In this document: positions 6,455 through 49,477 of the stretch, piece by piece
Layout of the letters: the number at the start of each line of letters is the position of its first letter
How positions within the stretch are numbered: position 1 is the first letter of the stretch
Virus record (IMG/VR): IMGVR_UViG_3300006033_000016
Location: 32,001-96,000 of that record
Strand: one strand, 5' to 3'
DNA length: 64,000 bases
From: a virus
Notes under the pieces: model-generated
What the model saw: the letters and a program-made list of their open reading frames with translations, nothing else
Databases searched by the model: none
What the model was told of the DNA's origin: nothing
Made by a program: the position numbers and the translations under genes

Positions 6455-7371
6455 ACTGCAACGTCAGCAGACAGCTTAGCCAGCGGATTATACCCAACAA
6501 GACTGATGTGCTCCCACTTTACATCCCACACGTGAAGAGAGGCTACATCATCGGATAGAACTATCTGTGGAGATGCAGGAGGAGTTCGTGAAAGCTGTTC
6601 CTTAACTTGATCCACATGATTTTCGTAGATGTGGACATCGTGAAGCGTATGAACAAACGAACCAACTTGCAGACCGCAGGCCTTTGCAAACATGTGAGTT
6701 AGCAGAGAGTAACTTGCAATGTTAAAAGGCACTCCAAGAAATACGTCAGCACTACGTTGGAAAAGATGACAGTGAAGTTTGTCATCTTGGACGGTCCATT
6801 GGCTGAAGGTATGACAGGGAGGCAGGGCTACCAAGTCAGCTTCTGCGGGGTTCCATCCTGTCAAAATCAAACGTCGGCTGTTGCTCTTGGCGTAGAACTG
6901 ACCCGAGAGCCAGGCAATCTGGTCAAATCCATTTGACGCATAACCAACACACTTACGTTGATTGCGTTCGTCAAGCACAGTGATATTTGTGTCAGGGTCT
7001 CCATAAGTATTAAGAATGGGTGTGGCTCCGAAGTTCCTCCACTGATGGGAGTAAATTGGACCCATGTTCCACCACTCACGACCATGTTTCTTATTGTGGG
7101 CTTCTGTCGCCCACTCATCCCAAATGTCTACTCCAGCAGCTTGGAGATCTCGCACATCTACTGAGCCGCTGAGGAACCATCGAAGCTCCTCAAAGATCCA
7201 GCGCAGGGGTAGCTTCTTACTCGTCAATAAAGGAAAACCAGCAGTAAGGTCGAACCTCATCTGGTATCCGAGTAGGCCGATGGTGTCTACGCCTGTTCTA
7301 TTTTCTTTACGAACTCCATTCTCTAGTATGGAGGAAAGAAGGGATAAGTAGGGAAGGTCGTGCTGAGTCAT
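6451..7371 (-). CDS. thyA: thymidylate synthase
   Basis: NRTGVDT, EELRWFL, GPIYSHQWR, ALPPCH, QRSADVFLGVPFNIASY, HIYENH; start moved to MTQHD because the longer ORF overlaps the upstream gene. Confidence 0.97.
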   Translation of the reverse strand: MTQHDLPYLSLLSSILENGVRKENRTGVDTIGLLGYQMRFDLTAGFPLLTSKKLPLRWIFEELRWFLSGSVDVRDLQAAGVDIWDEWATEAHNKKHGREWWNMGPIYSHQWRNFGATPILNTYGDPDTNITVLDERNQRKCVGYASNGFDQIAWLSGQFYAKSNSRRLILTGWNPAEADLVALPPCHTFSQWTVQDDKLHCHLFQRSADVFLGVPFNIASYSLLTHMFAKACGLQVGSFVHTLHDVHIYENHVDQVKEQLSRTPPASPQIVLSDDVASLHVWDVKWEHISLVGYNPLAKLSADVAV

Positions 7372-7388
7372 TTTCGTTCCTTTACAGG

Positions 7389-7577
7389 TCAGCCCCAAGG
7401 ACCGGCCCCAGAATTTGGAGCCTTGGAGGAAGAAGAGGGAACAATTTCTCCTCGAACTTCCTCCATTGAGGAGGATCCGCATGCTTCACAAACTTCCCAC
7501 TCGGGATCTCCATAAGCAGGAAGGAAATCTTCTTGAATATGCCCACAGGATAGGCAACGAACATCTACGAGCTTCAT
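7389..7577 (-). CDS. FmdB-like zinc-ribbon protein
   Basis: CLSCGH...CEACGS in 62 aa. Confidence 0.65.
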   Translation of the reverse strand: MKLVDVRCLSCGHIQEDFLPAYGDPEWEVCEACGSSSMEEVRGEIVPSSSSKAPNSGAGPWG

Positions 7578-7682
7578 TTGTCAATCCTTTCTATTTAGGG
7601 AAATGTAGCCAGTTTTCTTCATGTAGAGAAGAGCCATGAGGAGCACAAAAAATAACAGTAATAGCATGGAATACACCCAACG

Positions 7683-7712
7683 GAAAAGACCCCTGATGTC
7701 AGGGGTCTTTTC
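7683..7712. terminator. intrinsic terminator (symmetric)
   Basis: GAAAAGACCCCTGA-TG-TCAGGGGTCTTTTC inverted repeat. Confidence 0.8.
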
Positions 7713-8792
7713 AAGAAAGAGATAAGTCAAGCCCAAGGAACATAGCTAAGTCGGCGAAAGAAGTCAAACAGTTTCTCGAACAAAGAGGTGGCCTCGTTCA
7801 TGGGGTCTTCTTCGTCAGGGTCGTTTGAAAGATGAAGAGATCGGGCTATGTCCTCCATCTGAGAATGAAGACTTAGTTCAGAGGAATCTTCCAGGATTCG
7901 AAGGTCAGGATAATACTTCTGCACCTTGTTAGCCATCTTTCTGGCTTTTCTCGCCAGGCGCTGACGTTCTCTGCGGTGTTCTTTGAGTTCATCGAAGACC
8001 TCCTTCGCTTCTTTATTGAGGTTGTCAATTTCCCTCATCCTACGGATGCGGGATGGCTTGATACGTAGCGTATCCATACCAGGTATATAACATGGATAAA
8101 GCCTATTTAGCAGGAAGAAAGTGCCAATACATGTCTAGCCTGGCCATTGAAACGAGCTGATGTAATGACATATTCTTCAGCTTGTAGTCCTGCATAGATT
8201 CTGGAAGGCAGGAAAGCAAAGAAGGAGCAACACGGTATAGACGTCCTCTGCCAAGAGGAAGTGTAACCCACGTGTACTCTACGTTAAGTCCGCAAGACAG
8301 GATATCCCTGTCCAACCTCCAGTACGTAGAAGTCTTTTTCGCAGAAACCAGAATGTAACGATACTGCTCTTCCTTAATGTCTCTGAAATGAGGCTGGTAG
8401 GGGAGACCCCTTGCTAAGGCCTCTTTATGGACTAGGTCTAATGCCTTGTCCAAAGACACAGAACAAGAACTATACACATTCTGTGTCAACTTAAGAGCAC
8501 ATGACACAGAACAGGGGCCATGCCCGTCAGTGTAGATTGAGCTGAACCCACAGGCAGGACACGAGGGAACTGATGTGGGTTGCCCTGTCATGCTGCAGGT
8601 CCATTATTACGTCTGGGGCGGACCTTCAAATAAGAAAAGTACGCCTTATCCACAATCCGTACTAGGATTGTGATAGGGTAAATAACAGCATGGAATGCTT
8701 GTCGCATAGCCTACCTATAGATAAGTATGAAATAGTTCCTTTGAAGAAGAAGGAGAAGGGTACATCGAGAGTGAACACGTGCGCAGAGGTCT

Positions 8793-18877: not shown

Positions 18878-18885
18878 AAACATAT

Positions 18886-19009
18886 GTGCTGACAGAATTG
18901 AAAAAGACGTAGTTACTGATGTCCTTCCATTAGACTAGATCTCCGGAGAGACCTCGGGAGTCGAACCCGAATCCCCAGTTTGGATTGTAGTCTTTCTCGC
19001 ATTCAGCAC
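18886..19009 (-). ncRNA. Y RNA-like (YrlA-type) RNA 2
   Basis: stem GTGCTGA/TCAGCAC; T arm TCGGG-TTCGACT-CCCGA, acceptor hairpin, then D arm TAGTCTAATGGAAGGAC (T before D). Confidence 0.88.
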
Positions 19010-24681: not shown

Positions 24682-25034
24682 AAATCACAGCCTACCAAGA
24701 TAAGGTGTTATTCCTTCACTAGTAGCTTTTTCTTCTAAGCTCTTTAGCGTGTCGGTCTCCTCGTCAGTTAGACGACGAACCCACACTGCCCCTGCTACGA
24801 TTACACTTCCGTGTGGCGTGACACACTCATACATAGAGTTTAGGTTCTCGTCAAAAGGAAATGTAGATACGACTCTGCACAGAAAAGTAGAACCGTTGCA
24901 TGATACTGCACAGGAGTCTCCTTTTTCCAAATTTCCTACAAAGTGTGTCATAACAAATGGCACCAGGTTTCGGTTACGCTCCGAACTCTTTTGATCTTCA
25001 GTCAAACGCTTTCACTAGATTAGCTTACCTGGCG

Positions 25035-25108: not shown

Positions 25109-25111
25109 AAA

Positions 25112-25235
25112 GTGCCAACAGGATTTATAAAGACGTTTGGACTATTGCTCTACCATTTGAGCTACCACATCGTTTCCGAGGTGGACTGGAATCGAACCAG
25201 CACGCGACAGTTGTAGTCTTTACAGCATTTGGCAC
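25112..25235 (-). ncRNA. Y RNA-like (YrlA-type) RNA 4
   Basis: stem GTGCCAA/TTGGCAC, AAGAC/GTCTT; T arm CTGG-TTCGATT-CCAG, acceptor hairpin, canonical D arm TAGCTCAAATGGTAGAGC. Confidence 0.88.
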
Positions 25236-27178: not shown

Positions 27179-27240
27179 CTGATTTTCTCCAGTTGGTTAG
27201 GTGTTCGGCGTTAGCCGAATTGACCTTCGCACATGGTGCG

Positions 27241-27327
27241 GGCAGAGGAGGTGGGATTCGAACCCACGGTACCCGGAGGTACACACGATTTCCAGTCGTG
27301 CGCCTTAGACCACTCGGCCACTCCTCT
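27241..27327 (-). tRNA. tRNA-Ser(GGA)
   Basis: CACGA-CTGGAAA-TCGTG, long variable arm. Confidence 0.93.
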
Positions 27328-27332
27328 AAGTC

Positions 27333-27944
27333 TTAGGAGATTACAGATGCCAGTTTTTCTTGTGCTTTTGCAAGAACAGCCTTTGCCCGTTCTATCTCCC
27401 ACTCCCGAAGAAGTCGTGGATAAGACTCTACAGCGTCGTTATAGGCAGCAAGTTTTGCTTCATAGTCTGCCCTCAATTTATCATTTTCTTGTCTAACTTC
27501 TTCTGGACTACGTGAGTATTCCACCATAACGACAAGAGGGTCATATTCGCCACCATACTCGATATGGTATTCAGATCCAGCCAATGCTTTGACGAGCAGT
27601 GGAATAGTTGTATGGTCTAAACAGGACTCCGCATGAACCAGGTCGTTTTCGGAAAGAAAAGCCCACTCTGGGCTGTCTTTTTCAGTCTCTCTGTAGAAAG
27701 CGAGAGATTCTAGACTAAATTGGAATACGAAGGGATGAAAGGACTCTGCAAGGGCAACCACTCCAAAACTAGTCATCAAGAAGAACCCCTTACCAAGGTC
27801 TATGATCCCTTCTCCCACAGGAAGGGAATAGTTGGGATAAGACACGTTAAGCTTGTACAACTCAAACCATTCCCTTCTTGTCTGAGCTGCCTCCTTCGGC
27901 TTAGAGGGCTTCTTAGGCTTCGTAGGTTTCTTGAGGTTCTTCAT
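27333..27944 (-). CDS. hypothetical protein
   Basis: 203-aa ORF, KP-rich N-terminus, coiled-coil C-terminus. Confidence 0.65.
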   Translation of the reverse strand: MKNLKKPTKPKKPSKPKEAAQTRREWFELYKLNVSYPNYSLPVGEGIIDLGKGFFLMTSFGVVALAESFHPFVFQFSLESLAFYRETEKDSPEWAFLSENDLVHAESCLDHTTIPLLVKALAGSEYHIEYGGEYDPLVVMVEYSRSPEEVRQENDKLRADYEAKLAAYNDAVESYPRLLREWEIERAKAVLAKAQEKLASVIS

Positions 27945-27962
27945 AAGACGTCCTGACTAAAT

Positions 27963-27990
27963 TAGTGGAGCTGACGGGGATCGAACCCCA
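27963..27990 (-). pseudogene. 3' fragment of split tRNA-Ala
   Basis: GGGTTCGATCCCCGTCAGCTCCA: T loop plus acceptor 3' strand complementary to GGGGCTG at 28615. Confidence 0.8.
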
Positions 27991-28017
27991 TCTTTGTACC
28001 TAGACGAGTGTAGGAGC

Positions 28018-28551
28018 CTAGTGAATGCCCAACCGTCTTCGCCCCACACATGGGTTCGAATTTCCCCATGTTGGAGTTAAACTATGACAGTTTGGGCAAA
28101 GCAGCCTAAGATTTGATGGTACAGTATTTAGACAATTACCATCTATGTGGTCGACCTGAAGAGGTATGTTCCCCGTTACTTCGTTGACCTCAGCCCATCC
28201 GCATTTCTCGCACTTAGAATCTGCTCGGTCAAACAACCAACGTTTTACATGAGAGGAAAGCTGCTTCTGCGCATTGTTAATATGTCCTGAAACTTCTCCT
28301 GAAACCCATTTTTCGATGTATAGATTATACTGATAATCAAACTGGCATCTATTACTACAATAATGACTACGTTTGTTGGTTAGAGGAGTACTACATCGTA
28401 GGCAATTAGGGTGTGCAAGGTACGGATCAGTTTTTAACTTGTGCTTTACGAGCCAATAACGTATACGTCCTTTGCTGCAGCCTAAACGCTTAGCAATGTT
28501 CTGTATTGATAGTTTTTCGTTTACTAAAGATTCAAGAAGATCGTATTCCAC
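28018..28551 (-). CDS. HNH endonuclease with N-terminal HTH, inside split tRNA-Ala
   Basis: SIQNIAKRLGCS, CEKCG, LQVDHIDGN, NLRLLCPNCHS. Confidence 0.9.
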   Translation of the reverse strand: MEYDLLESLVNEKLSIQNIAKRLGCSKGRIRYWLVKHKLKTDPYLAHPNCLRCSTPLTNKRSHYCSNRCQFDYQYNLYIEKWVSGEVSGHINNAQKQLSSHVKRWLFDRADSKCEKCGWAEVNEVTGNIPLQVDHIDGNCLNTVPSNLRLLCPNCHSLTPTWGNSNPCVGRRRLGIH

Positions 28552-28590
28552 ACTTAAATCATAAGTGAGAGTAAGATCTCTTCTAACTTT

Positions 28591-28615
28591 ACTCTCCCAG
28601 CTGAGCTACAGCCCC
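28591..28615 (-). pseudogene. 5' fragment of split tRNA-Ala
   Basis: GGGGCTGTAGCTCAGCTGGGAGAG: canonical tRNA-Ala acceptor 5' strand and D arm. Confidence 0.85.
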
Positions 28616-29103
28616 ATACCTTTTTCTTTACAGTGTTTTGTATAGTACCACAAGGCTTCCTGTCCTGCTTCGGACAGAGAAGAACAAGGAATTTTTCTTT
28701 TCTCCTTAGCGTAAAGCCAAGTAAGATAGGTCATCTTCTCGGCCGATTCCGGATACCCAAAAACTATATCCTTGTCCCGAAGCCATAAACCGAATTCTAC
28801 GTTGGTAGTAAAGCCCGGCATTCCTTCTGACAGGGATCTTGGAACCCAGAACAGAAGTAAGTTGCAAGAGGATATGGCCAGATACTCCCATTCAGTTTGG
28901 TGATCGTAATTACCGTGAAACGTACCTGTCCTATCCTCTGGGTAGAACAGGCAAACGTTGTCCGTCTTCCCGAAAATACTCTCCAGTTCTCTCACAGCAG
29001 AAGGGCGCCAAGACTTAGCGTTAGAGTCGCGAGGAGTAGGACCTGCGAGAAATATGCTGAAGGACGTGTAGGTGAGTGGTTCTAGAGCGTAACAAATGTT
29101 CAT
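28606..29103 (-). CDS. nucleoside 2-deoxyribosyltransferase-like protein
   Basis: IFLAGPTPR, SWR, QTEWE, FWVPR, GFTTNVEFG. Confidence 0.82.
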   Translation of the reverse strand: MNICYALEPLTYTSFSIFLAGPTPRDSNAKSWRPSAVRELESIFGKTDNVCLFYPEDRTGTFHGNYDHQTEWEYLAISSCNLLLFWVPRSLSEGMPGFTTNVEFGLWLRDKDIVFGYPESAEKMTYLTWLYAKEKRKIPCSSLSEAGQEALWYYTKHCKEKGMGL

Positions 29104-29124
29104 GGTACTCTTTAGAGTTTACTG

Positions 29125-29200
<76 letters not shown>

Positions 29201-29695
29201 TCATGTTTGTCCTGTTAGTCTCTTTCGACCCAGTCCAAGTCCGTAATGTCACGAAGAACATTCAAGGTTTTGGCACTTTTTGCAGAAAGAGAAGAGGCTA
29301 TGATTTGAGCCAACGCGGAAGTACTAAGACGCTCTCCTACTACCCAGGACTTTCTTATTTCTGATAGCAGGTTGTAGATGTCCGGCCTGTGGGACTCTTC
29401 CGCCTTCTTCATCAGGCTTTCAAACTCAGAGAATACAAAAGGTATAGCCACGGATGATTTGGATTTCATAATGGACTGAAGAGATTCTAGGCACTGAGAG
29501 CATGTGATGGGCTCTTCTGCCGTTCCTCCTCCATTAGACCCAAACCAAAGGGAACTAGATCGGCAAAGTGCGAACAACCCTTCATCGATACGATAAACAA
29601 TATGAGATAGCTGAGGAACACAGTCGTCTCCATCGTACCCTACGCCCATCCCTCTGGATAAAACGAAGTACTCTTCTTCCGGAGAAAGAGGTCTT

Positions 29696-30972: not shown

Positions 30973-31175
30973 TAGCGCCCCTGGGAAGACTCGAACTTCC
31001 ACCACCTAAACCAAAACCTAGAATTAGGAAACGCGCTTCCCTAGCGACCCTGGTCCTCAGTGCCATTCGGTGCCTCTGCAACCTTAAGGTTTCCCTGCTT
31101 TATAGGCAGGTGCTTAGATGCCATTTACGGCCCGGCTCCGTTTTTCCGGTGTTCTTCCTTTTGAACTTCAGGGGC
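30973..31175 (-). ncRNA. tRNA-like RNA (Arg-like scaffold) with ~140-nt insert replacing the anticodon arm
   Basis: GCCCCTG/CAGGGGC acceptor, D arm GTTC-AAAAGGAA-GAAC, T arm GGAAG-TTCGAGT-CTTCC. Confidence 0.72.
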
Positions 31176-37178: not shown

Positions 37179-37360
37179 GGGTCTCCAAGATTAGAGAATA
37201 GACTAACGAAGGGATTGAGGGGTACTAGCCTCTTCCAGTTGGGCTACCTCCCCATAAAATGGCGGGGAGGGCAGGATTCGAACCTGCACCCGATCGTACC
37301 CATATTCAAGTTGAACTTGAACTTGTTCTCTTTCCCTAACTCAAGTCCCATGGACTTGAG
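37179..37360 (-). ncRNA. circularly permuted tRNA-like RNA A
   Basis: T arm GCAGG-TTCGAAT-CCTGC, CCTCCCC-GCCATTTTAT-GGGGAGG, D arm TAGCCCAACTGGAAGAGGC, stems GGGTAC/GTACCC and GAGAA/TTCTC. Confidence 0.78.
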
Positions 37361-43533: not shown

Positions 43534-44556
43534 TCATCCTTCGACCCATCCATTAAACGTAACAGCTTTTCTCATCCAGTGCTGATCTGTTTGAACATGG
43601 TTGTTCCGAACGAACTTGCCTACTAAACGACGAAACTCAGAGTATTTGAAATCTGATGCCACTCTAACAACGTAACCCTCGCATGGATCTCCGTCCAAAG
43701 AAGACACGTCGATTTCTTTGAGTACGTTTTCGTTCCAGATTCCTCGGTATAGAACAGGAACAGTGCGTAACCCAAGCATGTCAGCACATGACACAGTGTC
43801 ATCCCAAGAGAGACACACATTCCATTCATTCCATATGGAGAAAACTTGAAAGAAGTGAGATAGGTTTGTGTATGCTATGGAATGAACTGCAGTAAGGTTT
43901 TCTCCACAAACTCTCCATCTATCGGGTATATCATACCTGATCTGGGACCAAAGAGATTTGAGAAGATTCCTAGATTCATGAGGCGTGTAGGATAATGACC
44001 GTGAATGTATGTGGTCCCTATAAAGAGAGGAGTTCTCGCCATCCATTTTGGCCGTAACCACTACTTCCCTACCCTCAAACTGGCTGACTGACTCCAGCGT
44101 CTTATCATCGCTTGTAGCACCAGGCGACCATGGCAAGTGATAAGTCCTGGGGTATTTTATTATGTGAGTGAATTCGTGTAAGGAATCAGAAAGAATCTTC
44201 TGAACCTGCTCCTCAAAAAACAACTCACCCGGAGTTCTGAGCCCGGAGGATAAATACACATTGCCCCACTTATCAAATCGAGACGAGGAATCGAAATGAG
44301 GAGGCAGAATGACTTTTCTTATTCCGCACTTTTCTCTTAGAGTTTCGCAAGATACTTTTGTTTCTTCGCAAAGCAGATGACAAGAAGCACACACTGAAGC
44401 TCCGTTGTCTAGATAATACCCACCGTCAGGCCATAGCTTGCGCTCTATAATGTGATGGGCGTCAACAGCAGGACTAGAACAGAGAACGCACCTATGAGAG
44501 TCACGGGTAAAAACCTGTGACTTAAATTCTTCTCGTGTCAGTAGCTGGGATGACAT
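43534..44556 (-). CDS. HNH-like domain fused to ATP-dependent RNA ligase
   Basis: N-terminal CVLC...DAHHIIER...VCASCH; C-terminal KYPRTYHLPWS, KMDGEN, GEN, EGYVVR, KFVR. Confidence 0.85.
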   Translation of the reverse strand: MSSQLLTREEFKSQVFTRDSHRCVLCSSPAVDAHHIIERKLWPDGGYYLDNGASVCASCHLLCEETKVSCETLREKCGIRKVILPPHFDSSSRFDKWGNVYLSSGLRTPGELFFEEQVQKILSDSLHEFTHIIKYPRTYHLPWSPGATSDDKTLESVSQFEGREVVVTAKMDGENSSLYRDHIHSRSLSYTPHESRNLLKSLWSQIRYDIPDRWRVCGENLTAVHSIAYTNLSHFFQVFSIWNEWNVCLSWDDTVSCADMLGLRTVPVLYRGIWNENVLKEIDVSSLDGDPCEGYVVRVASDFKYSEFRRLVGKFVRNNHVQTDQHWMRKAVTFNGWVEG

Positions 44557-48873: not shown

Positions 48874-48902
48874 TGGTCGGGGCAGCCAGATTCGAACTGA
48901 CG
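48874..48902 (-). pseudogene. 3' fragment of split tRNA-Pro
   Basis: GTCAG-TTCGAAT-CTGGC-TGCCCCG-ACCA; acceptor strand complementary to CGGGGCA at 49477. Confidence 0.85.
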
Positions 48903-48922
48903 TTGTGTCTGTCCTAATCTTA

Positions 48923-48997
48923 TGGTCGAGGTGACAGGAGTCGAACCTGCTTGATCTAGTTCCCAAAACTAGCGACTGACCGTTAGCCTACACCTCG
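48923..48997 (-). tRNA. tRNA-Pro(TGG)
   Basis: CGAGGTG/CACCTCG, CTAGT-TTTGGGA-ACTAG, ACCA end. Confidence 0.9.
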
Positions 48998-49006
48998 ATG
49001 TGTAAT

Positions 49007-49444
49007 TTACAGAGCACTTATTCTAATGTATCCCCTTTCTCTGGCTGTTTTTCTTCTATGGCAGTTGGCACATAATATTTGACACTTTTTCACTTCTTCT
49101 TTTATCCTTCTAAGAGAACAGCCACTACCTACAAGGTTTGACACGTTTTCTATCTTAGTAGAAGGGTCTAGGTGGTCAAAGTCAAGTACTATGGGGTCGG
49201 ATTCGCCACAAGAAGCACACGGATTGGTTTTTAGTATGTTGAGTATATACTCGGTATTTCGCATCCTCAACTTAGCAAAGTTAGACTGCTTTCTTGCCAA
49301 CCTCAGTTCCTTGGTACCACTCCAATACCTACGGTCGTAGGATCTCTTGCACTCTCTACATTTAGAGAGATGCCTGTTTCTCTTTGTAAGATAAGGAAAT
49401 TCGTCTATTGGCTTTTCCACGTTACAAACTAAACAACGTTTCAC
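49007..49444 (-). CDS. HNH endonuclease
   Basis: CLVC...CREC, CASCGESDPIVLDFDH, KCQILCANCHRRKT. Confidence 0.9.
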   Translation of the reverse strand: MKRCLVCNVEKPIDEFPYLTKRNRHLSKCRECKRSYDRRYWSGTKELRLARKQSNFAKLRMRNTEYILNILKTNPCASCGESDPIVLDFDHLDPSTKIENVSNLVGSGCSLRRIKEEVKKCQILCANCHRRKTARERGYIRISAL

Positions 49445-49454
49445 AGAAATACCA

Positions 49455-49477
49455 TAACCAAGCTCAGCTATGCCCCG
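49455..49477 (-). pseudogene. 5' fragment of split tRNA-Pro
   Basis: CGGGGCATAGCTGAGCTTGGTTA: acceptor 5' strand and D loop. Confidence 0.8.

What the first reader, a model, noticed from the sequence alone, without database searches (positions are those of the whole stretch)
27963..28615. tRNA-Ala split around an HNH gene, anticodon arm gone
Seen: canonical 5' part with D arm at 28591-28615 and T loop plus acceptor 3' strand at 27963-27990 flank a 177-aa HTH-HNH ORF. The acceptor strands still pair and keep the G3-U70 alanine identity pair. No group I intron core or intact tRNA-Ala is visible in the window. Inference: either an insertion scar, or a tRNA-wrapped mRNA that tRNA-processing enzymes could release or stabilise.
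Basis: partly seen in the sequence, partly recalled or inferred. Interest (0 to 1): 0.75.

Follow-up and report, generated by a model that had tools for sequence, protein, structure and literature searches.

The report
Nuclease gene splitting a phage tRNA-Ala
A selfish DNA-cutting-enzyme gene sits where the anticodon arm of this giant phage's own alanine tRNA gene used to be, leaving two dead tRNA halves; it is one example of a recurring, little-described habit of such genes in phage tRNA clusters.

Summary
On the minus strand, 28615-28591 is positions 1-25 of a tRNA-Ala. 27990-27963 is its T arm, acceptor 3' strand and A73. An intact 177-aa HNH gene lies between them, and tRNA positions about 26-48 are absent. 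No splicing could restore a decoding tRNA. No group I core, tRNA or tmRNA is detected.

The halves are collinear with an intact tRNA-Ala(GGC) at the matching place in a related 392-kb phage. They are therefore remnants of the resident gene.

The nuclease family lives almost only beside or inside tRNA genes, in phages, T5-like coliphages and Patescibacteria MAGs. The same layout, with the anticodon arm replaced by a nuclease gene, recurs in this window (tRNA-Pro) and twice in locus L036. Those three cases carry a spare tRNA; this one does not.

In three other metagenome runs the insert and halves show no variation, while the flanks hold 28 variable sites. That fits recent homing.

Best reading: homing-endonuclease insertion scar (0.72). 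A selected tRNA-wrapped mRNA is not excluded (about 0.1).

This scan had already noted similar cassettes on other DNA. I found no paper describing them.

The parts
28591..28615 (-). 5' remnant of the resident tRNA-Ala gene: positions 1-25 (acceptor 5' strand and D arm)
   Evidence: Read. It has 1 mismatch in 25 to the L001 tRNA-Ala and is collinear with L001 5832-5865.
28552..28590 (-). 39-nt leader of the insert. Together with the last bases of the D arm it forms an 8-bp hairpin (28596-28567) that competes with the D stem.
   Evidence: Read; fold (-18.9 kcal/mol; 14 of 200 shuffles fold as well).
28018..28551 (-). HNH homing-endonuclease gene of 177 aa with a GTG start. It has a weak N-terminal HTH, a four-cysteine cluster and a C-terminal HNH domain with zinc-binding cysteines.
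   Evidence: In a 7-sequence alignment H135, N147, H156 and C114, C117, C152, C155 are invariant. 564 homologues were found at E <= 0.001.
27991..28017 (-). 27-nt trailer of the insert, between the stop codon and the T arm
   Evidence: Read. It shows no likeness to a variable loop or an anticodon stem.
27963..27990 (-). 3' remnant of the resident tRNA-Ala gene: T arm (3 of 5 canonical stem pairs), acceptor 3' strand, A73, then CTA
   Evidence: Read. It has 3 mismatches in 26 to the L001 tRNA-Ala and is collinear with L001 5885-5932.
28606..29103 (-). Upstream neighbour: a nucleoside 2-deoxyribosyltransferase-like ORF. Its TAG stop lies inside the tRNA 5' remnant. It serves as a synteny anchor.
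   Evidence: Pfam PF15891, E 1.8e-9. It is 54% identical to L001 4001-4498.
27240..27328 (-). Downstream synteny anchor: tRNA-Ser(gga)
48874..49477 (-). Second case of the same layout in this window. In order: a tRNA-Pro 5' part, an HNH ORF (49444-49007), a complete tRNA-Pro(tgg) at 48997-48923, and the matching T arm and acceptor 3' part.
   Evidence: Read. ARAGORN. The ORF is. phrog_2255 HNH endonuclease, E 2.9e-37. The halves were paired by script.

Best explanation
A free-standing HNH homing-endonuclease gene has inserted into this giant phage's own tRNA-Ala gene. It replaced the anticodon arm and variable loop (positions about 26-48). What remains are two non-decoding remnants.

Shown:
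- The gene is split, and no splicing could restore it.
- The remnants lie at the orthologous place of an intact tRNA-Ala in a relative.
- The nuclease gene is intact and belongs to a family that lives beside or inside tRNA genes.
- The insert plus remnants is invariant in other samples whose flanks differ.

Inferred:
- The enzyme cuts intact tRNA-Ala genes of insert-free relatives during mixed infection, probably in or near the anticodon arm.
- The break is repaired from the insert-bearing genome, which copies the insert (homing).
- The insert-bearing allele is immune because the cut region is gone.
- Unlike the sister cases, this cassette carries no spare tRNA. The phage has simply lost its tRNA-Ala and relies on the host.
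- Because the acceptor strands still pair, tRNA-end-processing enzymes may still trim the transcript at the old tRNA ends. I take that as a by-product, not a design.
For: Sequence:
- The halves and the 600-nt replacement are read directly.
- The halves match a real tRNA-Ala, with no match in 20 shuffles.
- The 25-26 letters that intact tRNA-Ala genes of other organisms carry between the two halves are absent here (tables 5 and 5c).

Orthology (tblastx chain, window minus strand against L001):
- The order is tRNA-Leu(aag), a 200-nt tRNA-like RNA, tRNA-Gly(tcc), an ORF, tRNA-Ile(gat), the deoxyribosyltransferase-like ORF, tRNA-Ala, tRNA-Ser(gga), and a 247-aa ORF.
- L001 holds an intact tRNA-Ala(ggc) at that place.

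Nuclease family:
- 39 of 40 viral loci examined have a tRNA within 500 nt.
- In 16 of 17 Patescibacteria MAG loci a tRNA starts within 100 nt downstream.
- In a T5-like coliphage the homologue abuts tRNA-Thr.
- In 94 of 120 pattern matches the gene runs into an intact tRNA.

The same layout elsewhere:
- tRNA-Pro in this window.
- tRNA-Gly and tRNA-Phe in L036. The tRNA-Phe case uses an unrelated Phage_endo_I-like nuclease.
- L165 has a full-length homologue (36% identity, E 2.6e-40) with a complete tRNA-Ala(tgc) before it and a tRNA-Ala 3' remnant 9 nt after its stop.

Population:
- In runs X2, X3 and X4 there is no difference in 27922-28713, against 28 variable sites in 1172 flank bases (Fisher p 7.6e-6).

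Precedent:
- T4 SegB cuts inside tRNA genes and reads the T-arm motif (PMC2330249, abstract and passages read).
Against: - No insert-free allele of this phage itself was seen. The 'joints' have sides of only 24-25 nt and come from other organisms.
- Only one relative (L001, 54% identity in the neighbouring protein) supports the orthology. tRNA-Ala is so conserved that likeness alone says little.
- The contigs of the two closest nuclease homologues (P0001 at 88%, P0002 at 68%) could not be fetched. Whether the halves decay or are kept among relatives is therefore unknown.
- Cleavage specificity and homing are untested.
- The lack of variation could also come from a sweep, or from low depth (2-6x contigs).
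- The acceptor is still perfect, which is what a selected RNA shell would also show.
Confidence: 0.72

Rival explanations
1. tRNA-wrapped mRNA. The two halves are kept by selection as a tRNA-like clamp (acceptor stem plus T arm). RNase P and the 3'-end enzymes would then cut the nuclease mRNA out of the tRNA-cluster transcript and protect its ends.
For: The acceptor pairs 7 of 7 and A73 is kept. The predicted fold of the 656-nt RNA pairs the two ends (z -2.68 on 20 shuffles).

The insert fits tightly, with a 39-nt leader and a 27-nt trailer.

The same phage does use tRNA bodies with the anticodon arm swapped for other modules. There are Y-RNA-like hits. There is also a 200-nt tRNA-like RNA whose acceptor and T stems covary with L001.

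The SegB paper proposes that transcript processing controls expression of the T5 nucleases in tRNA clusters (PMC2330249, passage read).
Against: The canonical T stem has 2 of 5 pairs broken. The fold prefers a shifted 7-bp hairpin with a 6-nt loop.

The D stem loses to a local 8-bp hairpin. No helix closes the 600-nt insert.

The halves are the resident gene's own. Most family members have no such clamp: 94 of 120 simply abut a tRNA. No covariation data exist for this locus.
Confidence: 0.1
2. The tRNA-shaped shell is part of the mobile element itself, as in the 'tRNA-shaped intron' notes of this scan. It arrived here together with the nuclease gene and was never the resident tRNA-Ala.
For: Earlier scan notes describe nuclease genes inside tRNA-shaped shells lacking an anticodon arm (unchecked AI notes). 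The invariant block covers the halves as well as the gene.
Against: The halves lie exactly where the relative L001 has its tRNA-Ala, in a chain of nine collinear anchors. Likeness continues for about 15 nt past the tRNA 3' end.

No outer tRNA surrounds the shell. The upstream side is the end of a protein gene and the downstream side is the start of another.

The invariant block also runs 41 and 98 nt beyond the halves, as co-conversion would.
Confidence: 0.08
3. An intron (group I or other) that is spliced out to give a working tRNA-Ala.
For: In L130 a homologue (47% identity over 124 aa) sits as a clean insert of about 650 nt in the anticodon loop of a tRNA-Ile(GAU). Both anticodon-stem strands are kept there (my reading). 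Intron-like members of the family therefore exist.
Against: Here neither anticodon-stem strand, nor the anticodon, nor the variable loop is present on either side. Joining the halves gives no decoding tRNA.

Only 66 nt lie outside the ORF. There is no group I hit.
Confidence: 0.02
4. A tmRNA-like molecule: an alanine-accepting tRNA-like domain around an internal reading frame.
For: It has G3-U70 alanine identity, no anticodon arm and an internal ORF. There is a trivial Rfam tmRNA hit of 9.7 bits on the T arm.
Against: ARAGORN finds no tmRNA. The Rfam score is far below the 47-bit cut-off.

The ORF is a normal 177-aa HNH gene with its own start. It has hundreds of homologues that stand without any shell.
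Confidence: 0.01

Closest known systems
[quoted passage not shown]
   Same: It is a nuclease gene inside a phage tRNA cluster. It is co-oriented with the tRNAs and sporadic among relatives. SegB is shown to cut within tRNA genes and to drive its own inheritance. A sequence homologue of the window's protein lies in the tRNA cluster of a T5-like coliphage, abutting tRNA-Thr.
   Different: Those genes lie between tRNA genes. Here the gene lies inside one, in place of its anticodon arm, and destroys it. Cleavage and homing are untested here.
Nuclease-plus-spare-tRNA cassettes inside phage tRNA genes. These were noted by this scan (e1-5979162, e1-5918916, e1-5647581). I read them here at window 48874-49477 and at L036 2810-3386 and 3592-4330. 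I found no paper describing them.
   Same: The breakpoints are the same: the 5' remnant runs to about positions 21-28 and the 3' remnant starts at about positions 44-49. The anticodon arm is gone, the nuclease gene sits inside, and the acceptor halves still pair.
   Different: Those cassettes bring a complete tRNA of the same amino acid. This one brings none, so the tRNA function is lost, not replaced.
Group I introns with homing-endonuclease genes in tRNA anticodon loops of bacteria and plastids (recalled knowledge)
   Same: A tRNA gene is interrupted by an endonuclease gene.
   Different: There is no ribozyme core. The insertion is not clean: about 23 nt of the tRNA are deleted. Exon joining cannot restore the tRNA.
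tRNA introns of Lak megaphages, including an intron that may itself encode a tRNA (Devoto et al. 2019, PMC6784885; passages read)
   Same: Giant-phage tRNA genes have unexplained inserts, and the inserts are identical across cohorts.
   Different: As read, those inserts are described as introns in otherwise complete tRNAs, and no nuclease gene is mentioned. The paper's supplementary tables could not be opened.

Membership tests
HNH (His-Me finger) homing endonuclease, tRNA-cluster type | HNH catalytic motif and zinc-binding cysteines are intact | tested here: met
   PF13392 scored 24.9 bits (cut-off 24.8) and PF01844 scored 22.1 bits (cut-off 21.4). phrog_1271 gave E 9.5e-17. H135, N147, H156 and four cysteines are invariant in 7 sequences.
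HNH (His-Me finger) homing endonuclease, tRNA-cluster type | The gene lies in or beside tRNA genes, and is present in some relatives and absent in others at the same place | tested here: met
   The window has 20 ARAGORN tRNAs plus one more found only by Rfam, all on the same strand. L001 has an intact tRNA-Ala and no nuclease gene at the orthologous place.
HNH (His-Me finger) homing endonuclease, tRNA-cluster type | Site-specific cleavage of the insert-free allele, and biased inheritance | not testable with these tools
   There is only an indirect population signal: no variable site in the 653-nt element against 28 in 1172 flank bases.
Functional tRNA-Ala | A complete cloverleaf with anticodon arm | tested here: not met
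   There is no ARAGORN or Rfam tRNA call at this place. Positions about 26-48 are absent.
Group I intron | A conserved catalytic core, and exons that join to a working gene | tested here: not met
   There is no Intron_gpI hit at E up to 10 in 1.4 kb or up to 5 in the window. Only 66 nt are non-coding. The joined halves lack the anticodon arm.
Nuclease-plus-spare-tRNA cassette ('cut and rescue') | A complete tRNA of the same amino acid inside the insert | tested here: not met
   There is no tRNA between 28590 and 27991 and no tRNA-Ala anywhere in the 133-kb record. The feature is met at the tRNA-Pro locus of the same window.
tmRNA | A tRNA-like domain plus a short tag reading frame and pseudoknots, detectable by ARAGORN or Rfam | tested here: not met
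   ARAGORN finds none. Rfam scores 9.7 bits against a 47-bit cut-off.

The most novel reading that the evidence does not exclude
The paired tRNA-Ala ends are not just debris. They would be a working tRNA-like clamp that the cell's tRNA-end enzymes recognise. The nuclease mRNA would then be cut out of the tRNA-cluster transcript at exact ends and sheltered from exonucleases: a natural counterpart of the laboratory 'tRNA scaffold' for expressing RNAs. It would be one member of this phage's wider habit of hanging other modules on tRNA bodies (Y-RNA-like RNAs and the 200-nt RNA at 30976-31175).
Probability: 0.1. Interest if true: 0.75.

Novelty: new variant of a known kind. Interest (0 to 1): 0.45.

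Why it matters
Homing endonucleases in phage tRNA clusters have been known since T4 SegB and the T5 enzymes, but as genes lying between tRNA genes.

Here and in sister loci, the nuclease gene sits inside the tRNA gene, exactly in place of the anticodon arm. This happens with at least two unrelated nuclease folds. It points to a common rule: these enzymes probably cut tRNA genes in the anticodon region, the only part that tells tRNA genes apart. The surviving allele is the one that has lost that part.

The cases with a spare tRNA act like natural cut-and-rescue gene drives. This rescue-less case shows that a drive can also simply delete a dispensable phage tRNA. That helps explain why phage tRNA sets are so patchy, and why tRNA finders report missing isotypes and odd fragments in giant phages.

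The invariant insert among diverged flanks is a rare population-level trace of homing in uncultured phages.

Tried and rejected
Closest relatives. Neither protein's contig is in viral contigs. The phage collection holds no DNA relative of the locus, only tRNA hits. The downstream 203-aa protein has no relative in viral contigs.

Empty allele. The joints (27989 to 28592, with 25-26 letters between) looked at first like insert-free alleles. Their sides are only 24-25 nt and their depths differ from the phage's contigs. They are tRNA-Ala genes of other organisms.

RNA evidence. The runs marked RNA held 0.07-0.21 of the words. X13, which I laid, is probably DNA and covers only parts of the gene. 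It says nothing about transcripts or their ends.

Introns. There is no group I hit in the window or in L001, L028, L036, L042 and L058.

RNA repair. There is no RtcB in the record. The search for the T4 Rnl1 family rang nowhere, controls included, so it says nothing.

Census by pattern:
- My first script had an indexing error and wrongly reported no orphan T arms. One search corrects it to 26 of 120.
- Six of those 26 rows have poor T stems.
- Six more leave room for a complete tRNA that ARAGORN may have missed.
- Fourteen rows (12 distinct sequences) have the T arm within 30 nt of the stop.
- A strict search for the matching 5' half found it in 3 of the 26 rows (L130, L222, and a doubtful L209).

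Read-through of the TAG between the upstream ORF and the nuclease ORF: they share a frame with 18 open codons between them. That is expected by chance about one time in seven (my arithmetic) and there is no suppressor tRNA. I dropped it.

The 7-mer that matches a tRNA-Ala acceptor 3' strand at the nuclease stop codon could be a trace of a lost spare tRNA. It is a single short match and I did not pursue it.

Literature. Four searches found no paper on nuclease genes replacing tRNA anticodon arms. Supplements were closed, so the tRNA-intron tables of PMC6784885 could not be checked.

Full report
What is there.

The window is bases 32001-96000 of a 133-kb viral record that CheckV rates about 34% complete, so it is a fragment of a giant phage. 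All its tRNA genes lie on the minus strand of the window: 20 by ARAGORN, plus one more by Rfam at 24961-25033. I read that extra one as a tRNA-Phe(GAA).

On the minus strand, 28615-28591 reads as positions 1-25 of a tRNA-Ala: a 7-nt acceptor strand, positions 8-9, and a D stem and loop. 27990-27963 reads as T arm, acceptor 3' strand and A73, followed by CTA. The acceptor strands pair 7 of 7 and include the G3-U70 pair.

Between the halves lie 600 nt: a 39-nt leader, a 177-aa ORF (28551-28018, GTG start) and a 27-nt trailer. Neither strand of an anticodon stem, nor an anticodon, nor a variable loop can be found next to either half. I checked the registers by eye.

The halves are not chance matches. 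Against the intact tRNA-Ala(GGC) of locus L001 they have 1 mismatch in 25 and 3 in 26. No site in 20 shuffled windows came within 5 mismatches.

In one search, contigs of other organisms' tRNA-Ala genes were laid across both halves with 25-26 extra letters between them. That is exactly the missing piece.

The T stem is damaged. In canonical register only 3 of 5 pairs remain, and both changes relative to L001 in that stem break a pair.

What the ORF is.

Pfam gives HNH_3 and HNH just above their cut-offs and a weak HTH. PHROGs gives HNH endonuclease families down to E 9.5e-17. The only solved relatives by sequence are McrA-type HNH domains, at E 0.0089 and 0.11.

A word-indexed search found 564 homologues at E <= 0.001. 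In an alignment of seven, the catalytic histidine, the asparagine, the second histidine and four zinc cysteines are invariant. The record holds one copy. The gene looks intact and active.

It is not an intron, a tRNA or a tmRNA.

No group I model hits at E up to 10 in the 1.4-kb region or up to 5 in the whole window. Only 66 nt lie outside the ORF. Joining the halves would give an RNA without an anticodon arm. ARAGORN finds no tmRNA. The Rfam tmRNA match is a 9.7-bit hit on the T arm.

The halves belong to the resident gene.

The upstream neighbour, a nucleoside deoxyribosyltransferase-like protein, has a 54%-identical homologue in a 392-kb viral contig, L001.

A tblastx comparison shows nine collinear anchors between the window's minus strand and L001. 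In order they are: tRNA-Leu(aag), a 200-nt tRNA-like RNA, tRNA-Gly(tcc), an ORF, tRNA-Ile(gat), the transferase-like ORF, tRNA-Ala, tRNA-Ser(gga) and a 247-aa ORF.

The window's two halves match L001 5832-5865 and 5885-5932, where L001 has an intact tRNA-Ala(ggc). Likeness continues about 15 nt beyond the tRNA's 3' end. L001 has other genes between the anchors, so the region is not identical, and it is only one relative.

The nuclease family is tied to tRNA genes.

- Of 40 viral loci holding homologues (L006 and L028-L066, out of 81 such loci then held), 39 have a tRNA within 500 nt. The exception is L042 at 843 nt.
- Of 19 loci from genome assemblies, I examined 17, leaving out the two with 24-26% identity. 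Sixteen are Patescibacteria MAGs by record title; the other two are a Blastocatellaceae MAG (L111) and an unclassified 'bacterium' MAG (L127). In 16 of the 17 a tRNA starts within 100 nt downstream, mostly tRNA-Thr(cgt) or tRNA-Leu(taa); in the last one a tRNA ends 49 nt upstream.
- Among cultured phages, 49 records match by tblastn at up to 45% identity. They include T5-like phages and giant phages. In the T5-like coliphage HdH2 the annotated HNH gene abuts tRNA-Thr inside the tRNA cluster. In GAP32 the gene follows a tRNA-Thr.

A pattern joining the nuclease's conserved five-residue motif to a T-loop motif 66-96 nt downstream hit the window once, with none in 100 shuffles.

In 94 of the 120 matches, the T arm belongs to an intact tRNA that begins at a median of 9 nt before the end of the nuclease ORF. 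In 26 it does not.

Of those 26 rows:
- 6 have poor T stems;
- 6 leave room for a tRNA that ARAGORN may have missed;
- 14 (12 distinct sequences) have a well-paired T arm and acceptor strand within 30 nt of the stop codon, so they are tRNA 3' remnants.

The same layout elsewhere.

I read four clear sister cases.

(1) Window 49477-48874. In order: a tRNA-Pro 5' part, an HNH ORF of another subfamily (phrog_2255, E 2.9e-37), a complete tRNA-Pro(tgg), then a T arm with 5 of 5 pairs and an acceptor strand that pairs 7 of 7 with the 5' part.

(2) L036 2810-3386. In order: a 5' part, a complete tRNA-Gly(gcc), an HNH ORF, and a 3' part.

(3) L036 3592-4330. In order: a 5' part, a Phage_endo_I-like nuclease ORF (PF05367, E 2.8e-9), a complete tRNA-Phe(gaa), and a 3' part. 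I take the outer genes of (2) and (3) to be of the same amino acid as the inner ones. That rests on their acceptor and discriminator letters, which is recalled tRNA knowledge and not a test.

(4) L165. A complete tRNA-Ala(tgc) comes first, then a full-length homologue of the window's protein (36% identity over 182 aa, E 2.6e-40). Nine nt after its stop comes a tRNA-Ala variable loop, T arm and acceptor 3' strand. No 5' half was found there.

In cases 1-3 the 5' remnant ends at about positions 21-28 and the 3' remnant starts at about positions 44-49, as in the tRNA-Ala case. All four sister cases carry a spare tRNA. The tRNA-Ala case does not.

A different layout also exists. In L130 a homologue (47% identity over 124 aa) lies in an insert of about 650 nt in the anticodon loop of a tRNA-Ile(GAU), and both anticodon-stem strands are kept (my reading).

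Other loci show only scraps. In L034, the last 11 nt of tRNA-Gly recur after the nuclease gene.

Population data.

The stretch 27300-29250 is held in part by 20 public runs of 13 studies. I laid four of them. The contigs of X2, X3 and X4 come from three studies, none of them the likely source sample. They cover the nuclease gene and bridge both junctions: records 10, 11, 19, 20, 21 and 26.

Across these three runs there are 28 variable sites in the 1172 flank bases and none in the 653-nt element. The invariant block is 27922-28713. Fisher's exact p is 7.6e-6, or 5.2e-5 if the single X13 difference at 28357 is counted.

Depths are low, at 2-6x. However, many flank differences recur in two or three runs. 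This is what recent spread of the insert into diverged genomes, with short co-converted flanks, would give. A sweep would look the same.

RNA-level consequences.

Folded alone, the 656-nt RNA pairs its two ends with 6 acceptor pairs. It replaces the canonical T arm by a shifted 7-bp hairpin with a 6-nt loop, and it does not form the D stem (z -2.68 on 20 shuffles). Locally, the 3' strand of the D stem is taken by an 8-bp hairpin with the leader. No helix closes the insert.

This contrasts with a true tRNA-bodied RNA in the same window, at 30976-31175. Its acceptor and T stems differ from its L001 counterpart by paired changes, while its inner domain is conserved.

Reading.

The simplest account of all this is a homing-endonuclease gene that entered the resident tRNA-Ala gene at or near its cut site. 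The break lost the anticodon arm, which made the allele immune. The phage lost a dispensable tRNA.

That unrelated nucleases give the same breakpoints suggests they cut in the anticodon region, the part that distinguishes tRNA genes. They may be anchored on the T arm as SegB is (PMC2330249, abstract and passages). This is inference.

A selected role of the paired ends in trimming or shielding the mRNA is possible, but the damaged T stem, the lost D stem and the orthology argue against design. I put it at about 0.1.

Known and new.

Nuclease genes between phage tRNA genes are known: T4 SegB, and the T5 enzymes named in that paper. Unexplained tRNA introns in giant phages are in print (PMC6784885, passages). 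My four literature searches found no description of nuclease genes replacing the anticodon arm; supplements were closed.

This scan has noted such cassettes on other DNA many times: 113 notes hold the search words (AI notes, mostly unchecked). It also noted the tRNA-Pro case and the tRNA-bodied RNAs in this very genome. I checked those two directly.

Noticed in passing
window 48874-49477 (minus strand): A second split tRNA: tRNA-Pro halves around an HNH ORF (49444-49007) plus a complete, divergent tRNA-Pro(tgg). The outer acceptor pairs 7 of 7 and the T stem 5 of 5.
   Followed up: yes
window 30976-31175 (minus strand); L001 828-1047: A 200-nt RNA with tRNA acceptor, D and T arms and a 125-150-nt structured domain in place of the anticodon arm. 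The inner domain is conserved between the two phages. The acceptor and T stems differ by paired changes, so it looks like a functional RNA of unknown role. It has no Rfam family.
   Followed up: partly
window 25109-25235, 18883-19009, 37202-37312 (minus strand): Y-RNA-like (YrlA, RF02553) matches of 51, 44 and 29 bits, all below the 69-bit cut-off. Their T-loop and D-arm motifs are in permuted order. Earlier notes of this scan report a Ro60 gene nearby; I did not check that.
   Followed up: partly
window 43534-44556 (minus strand): A 340-aa ORF with an Rnl2-type RNA ligase domain (PF09414, E 1.3e-28) and a weak N-terminal HNH match (E 7.4e-4, below the cut-off). No RtcB is in the record.
   Followed up: partly
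window 24961-25033 (minus strand): A tRNA found by Rfam (42.5 bits) but missed by ARAGORN. I read the anticodon as GAA (Phe). The T loop is unusual.
   Followed up: partly
L130, reverse strand, about 7042-7765: A tRNA-Ile(GAU) with a clean insert of about 650 nt in its anticodon loop that carries a homologue of the nuclease. Both anticodon-stem strands are kept. It is an intron-like layout whose ribozyme core, if any, was not looked for in this locus.
   Followed up: partly
L111-L127 (17 genome-assembly loci, mostly Patescibacteria MAGs): Homologues of the nuclease (36-51% identity) lie directly upstream of tRNA-Thr(cgt) or tRNA-Leu(taa) in 16 of 17 loci. In L115, L116 and L118, 5'-half and T-arm matches 224-251 nt apart lie just upstream and may be a tRNA with an insert of roughly 150-180 nt (script hits only, not read).
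   Followed up: partly
L130-L248 (viral contigs): In 33 of the 94 cases where the nuclease gene runs into an intact tRNA, the ORF overlaps the first 9 nt of that tRNA exactly. tRNA-Leu(tag) and tRNA-Leu(taa) are the commonest partners (37 of 94).
   Followed up: no
window 28551-28608 (minus strand): The upstream transferase-like ORF and the nuclease ORF share one frame. They are separated by a single TAG (inside the tRNA 5' remnant) and 18 open codons. I judged this to be chance.
   Followed up: partly
L058 7465-7670; also L061 and L062: A tRNA-like gene with normal acceptor, D arm, an anticodon-like stem-loop (GAG) and T arm, but about 110 nt where the variable arm should be.
   Followed up: no
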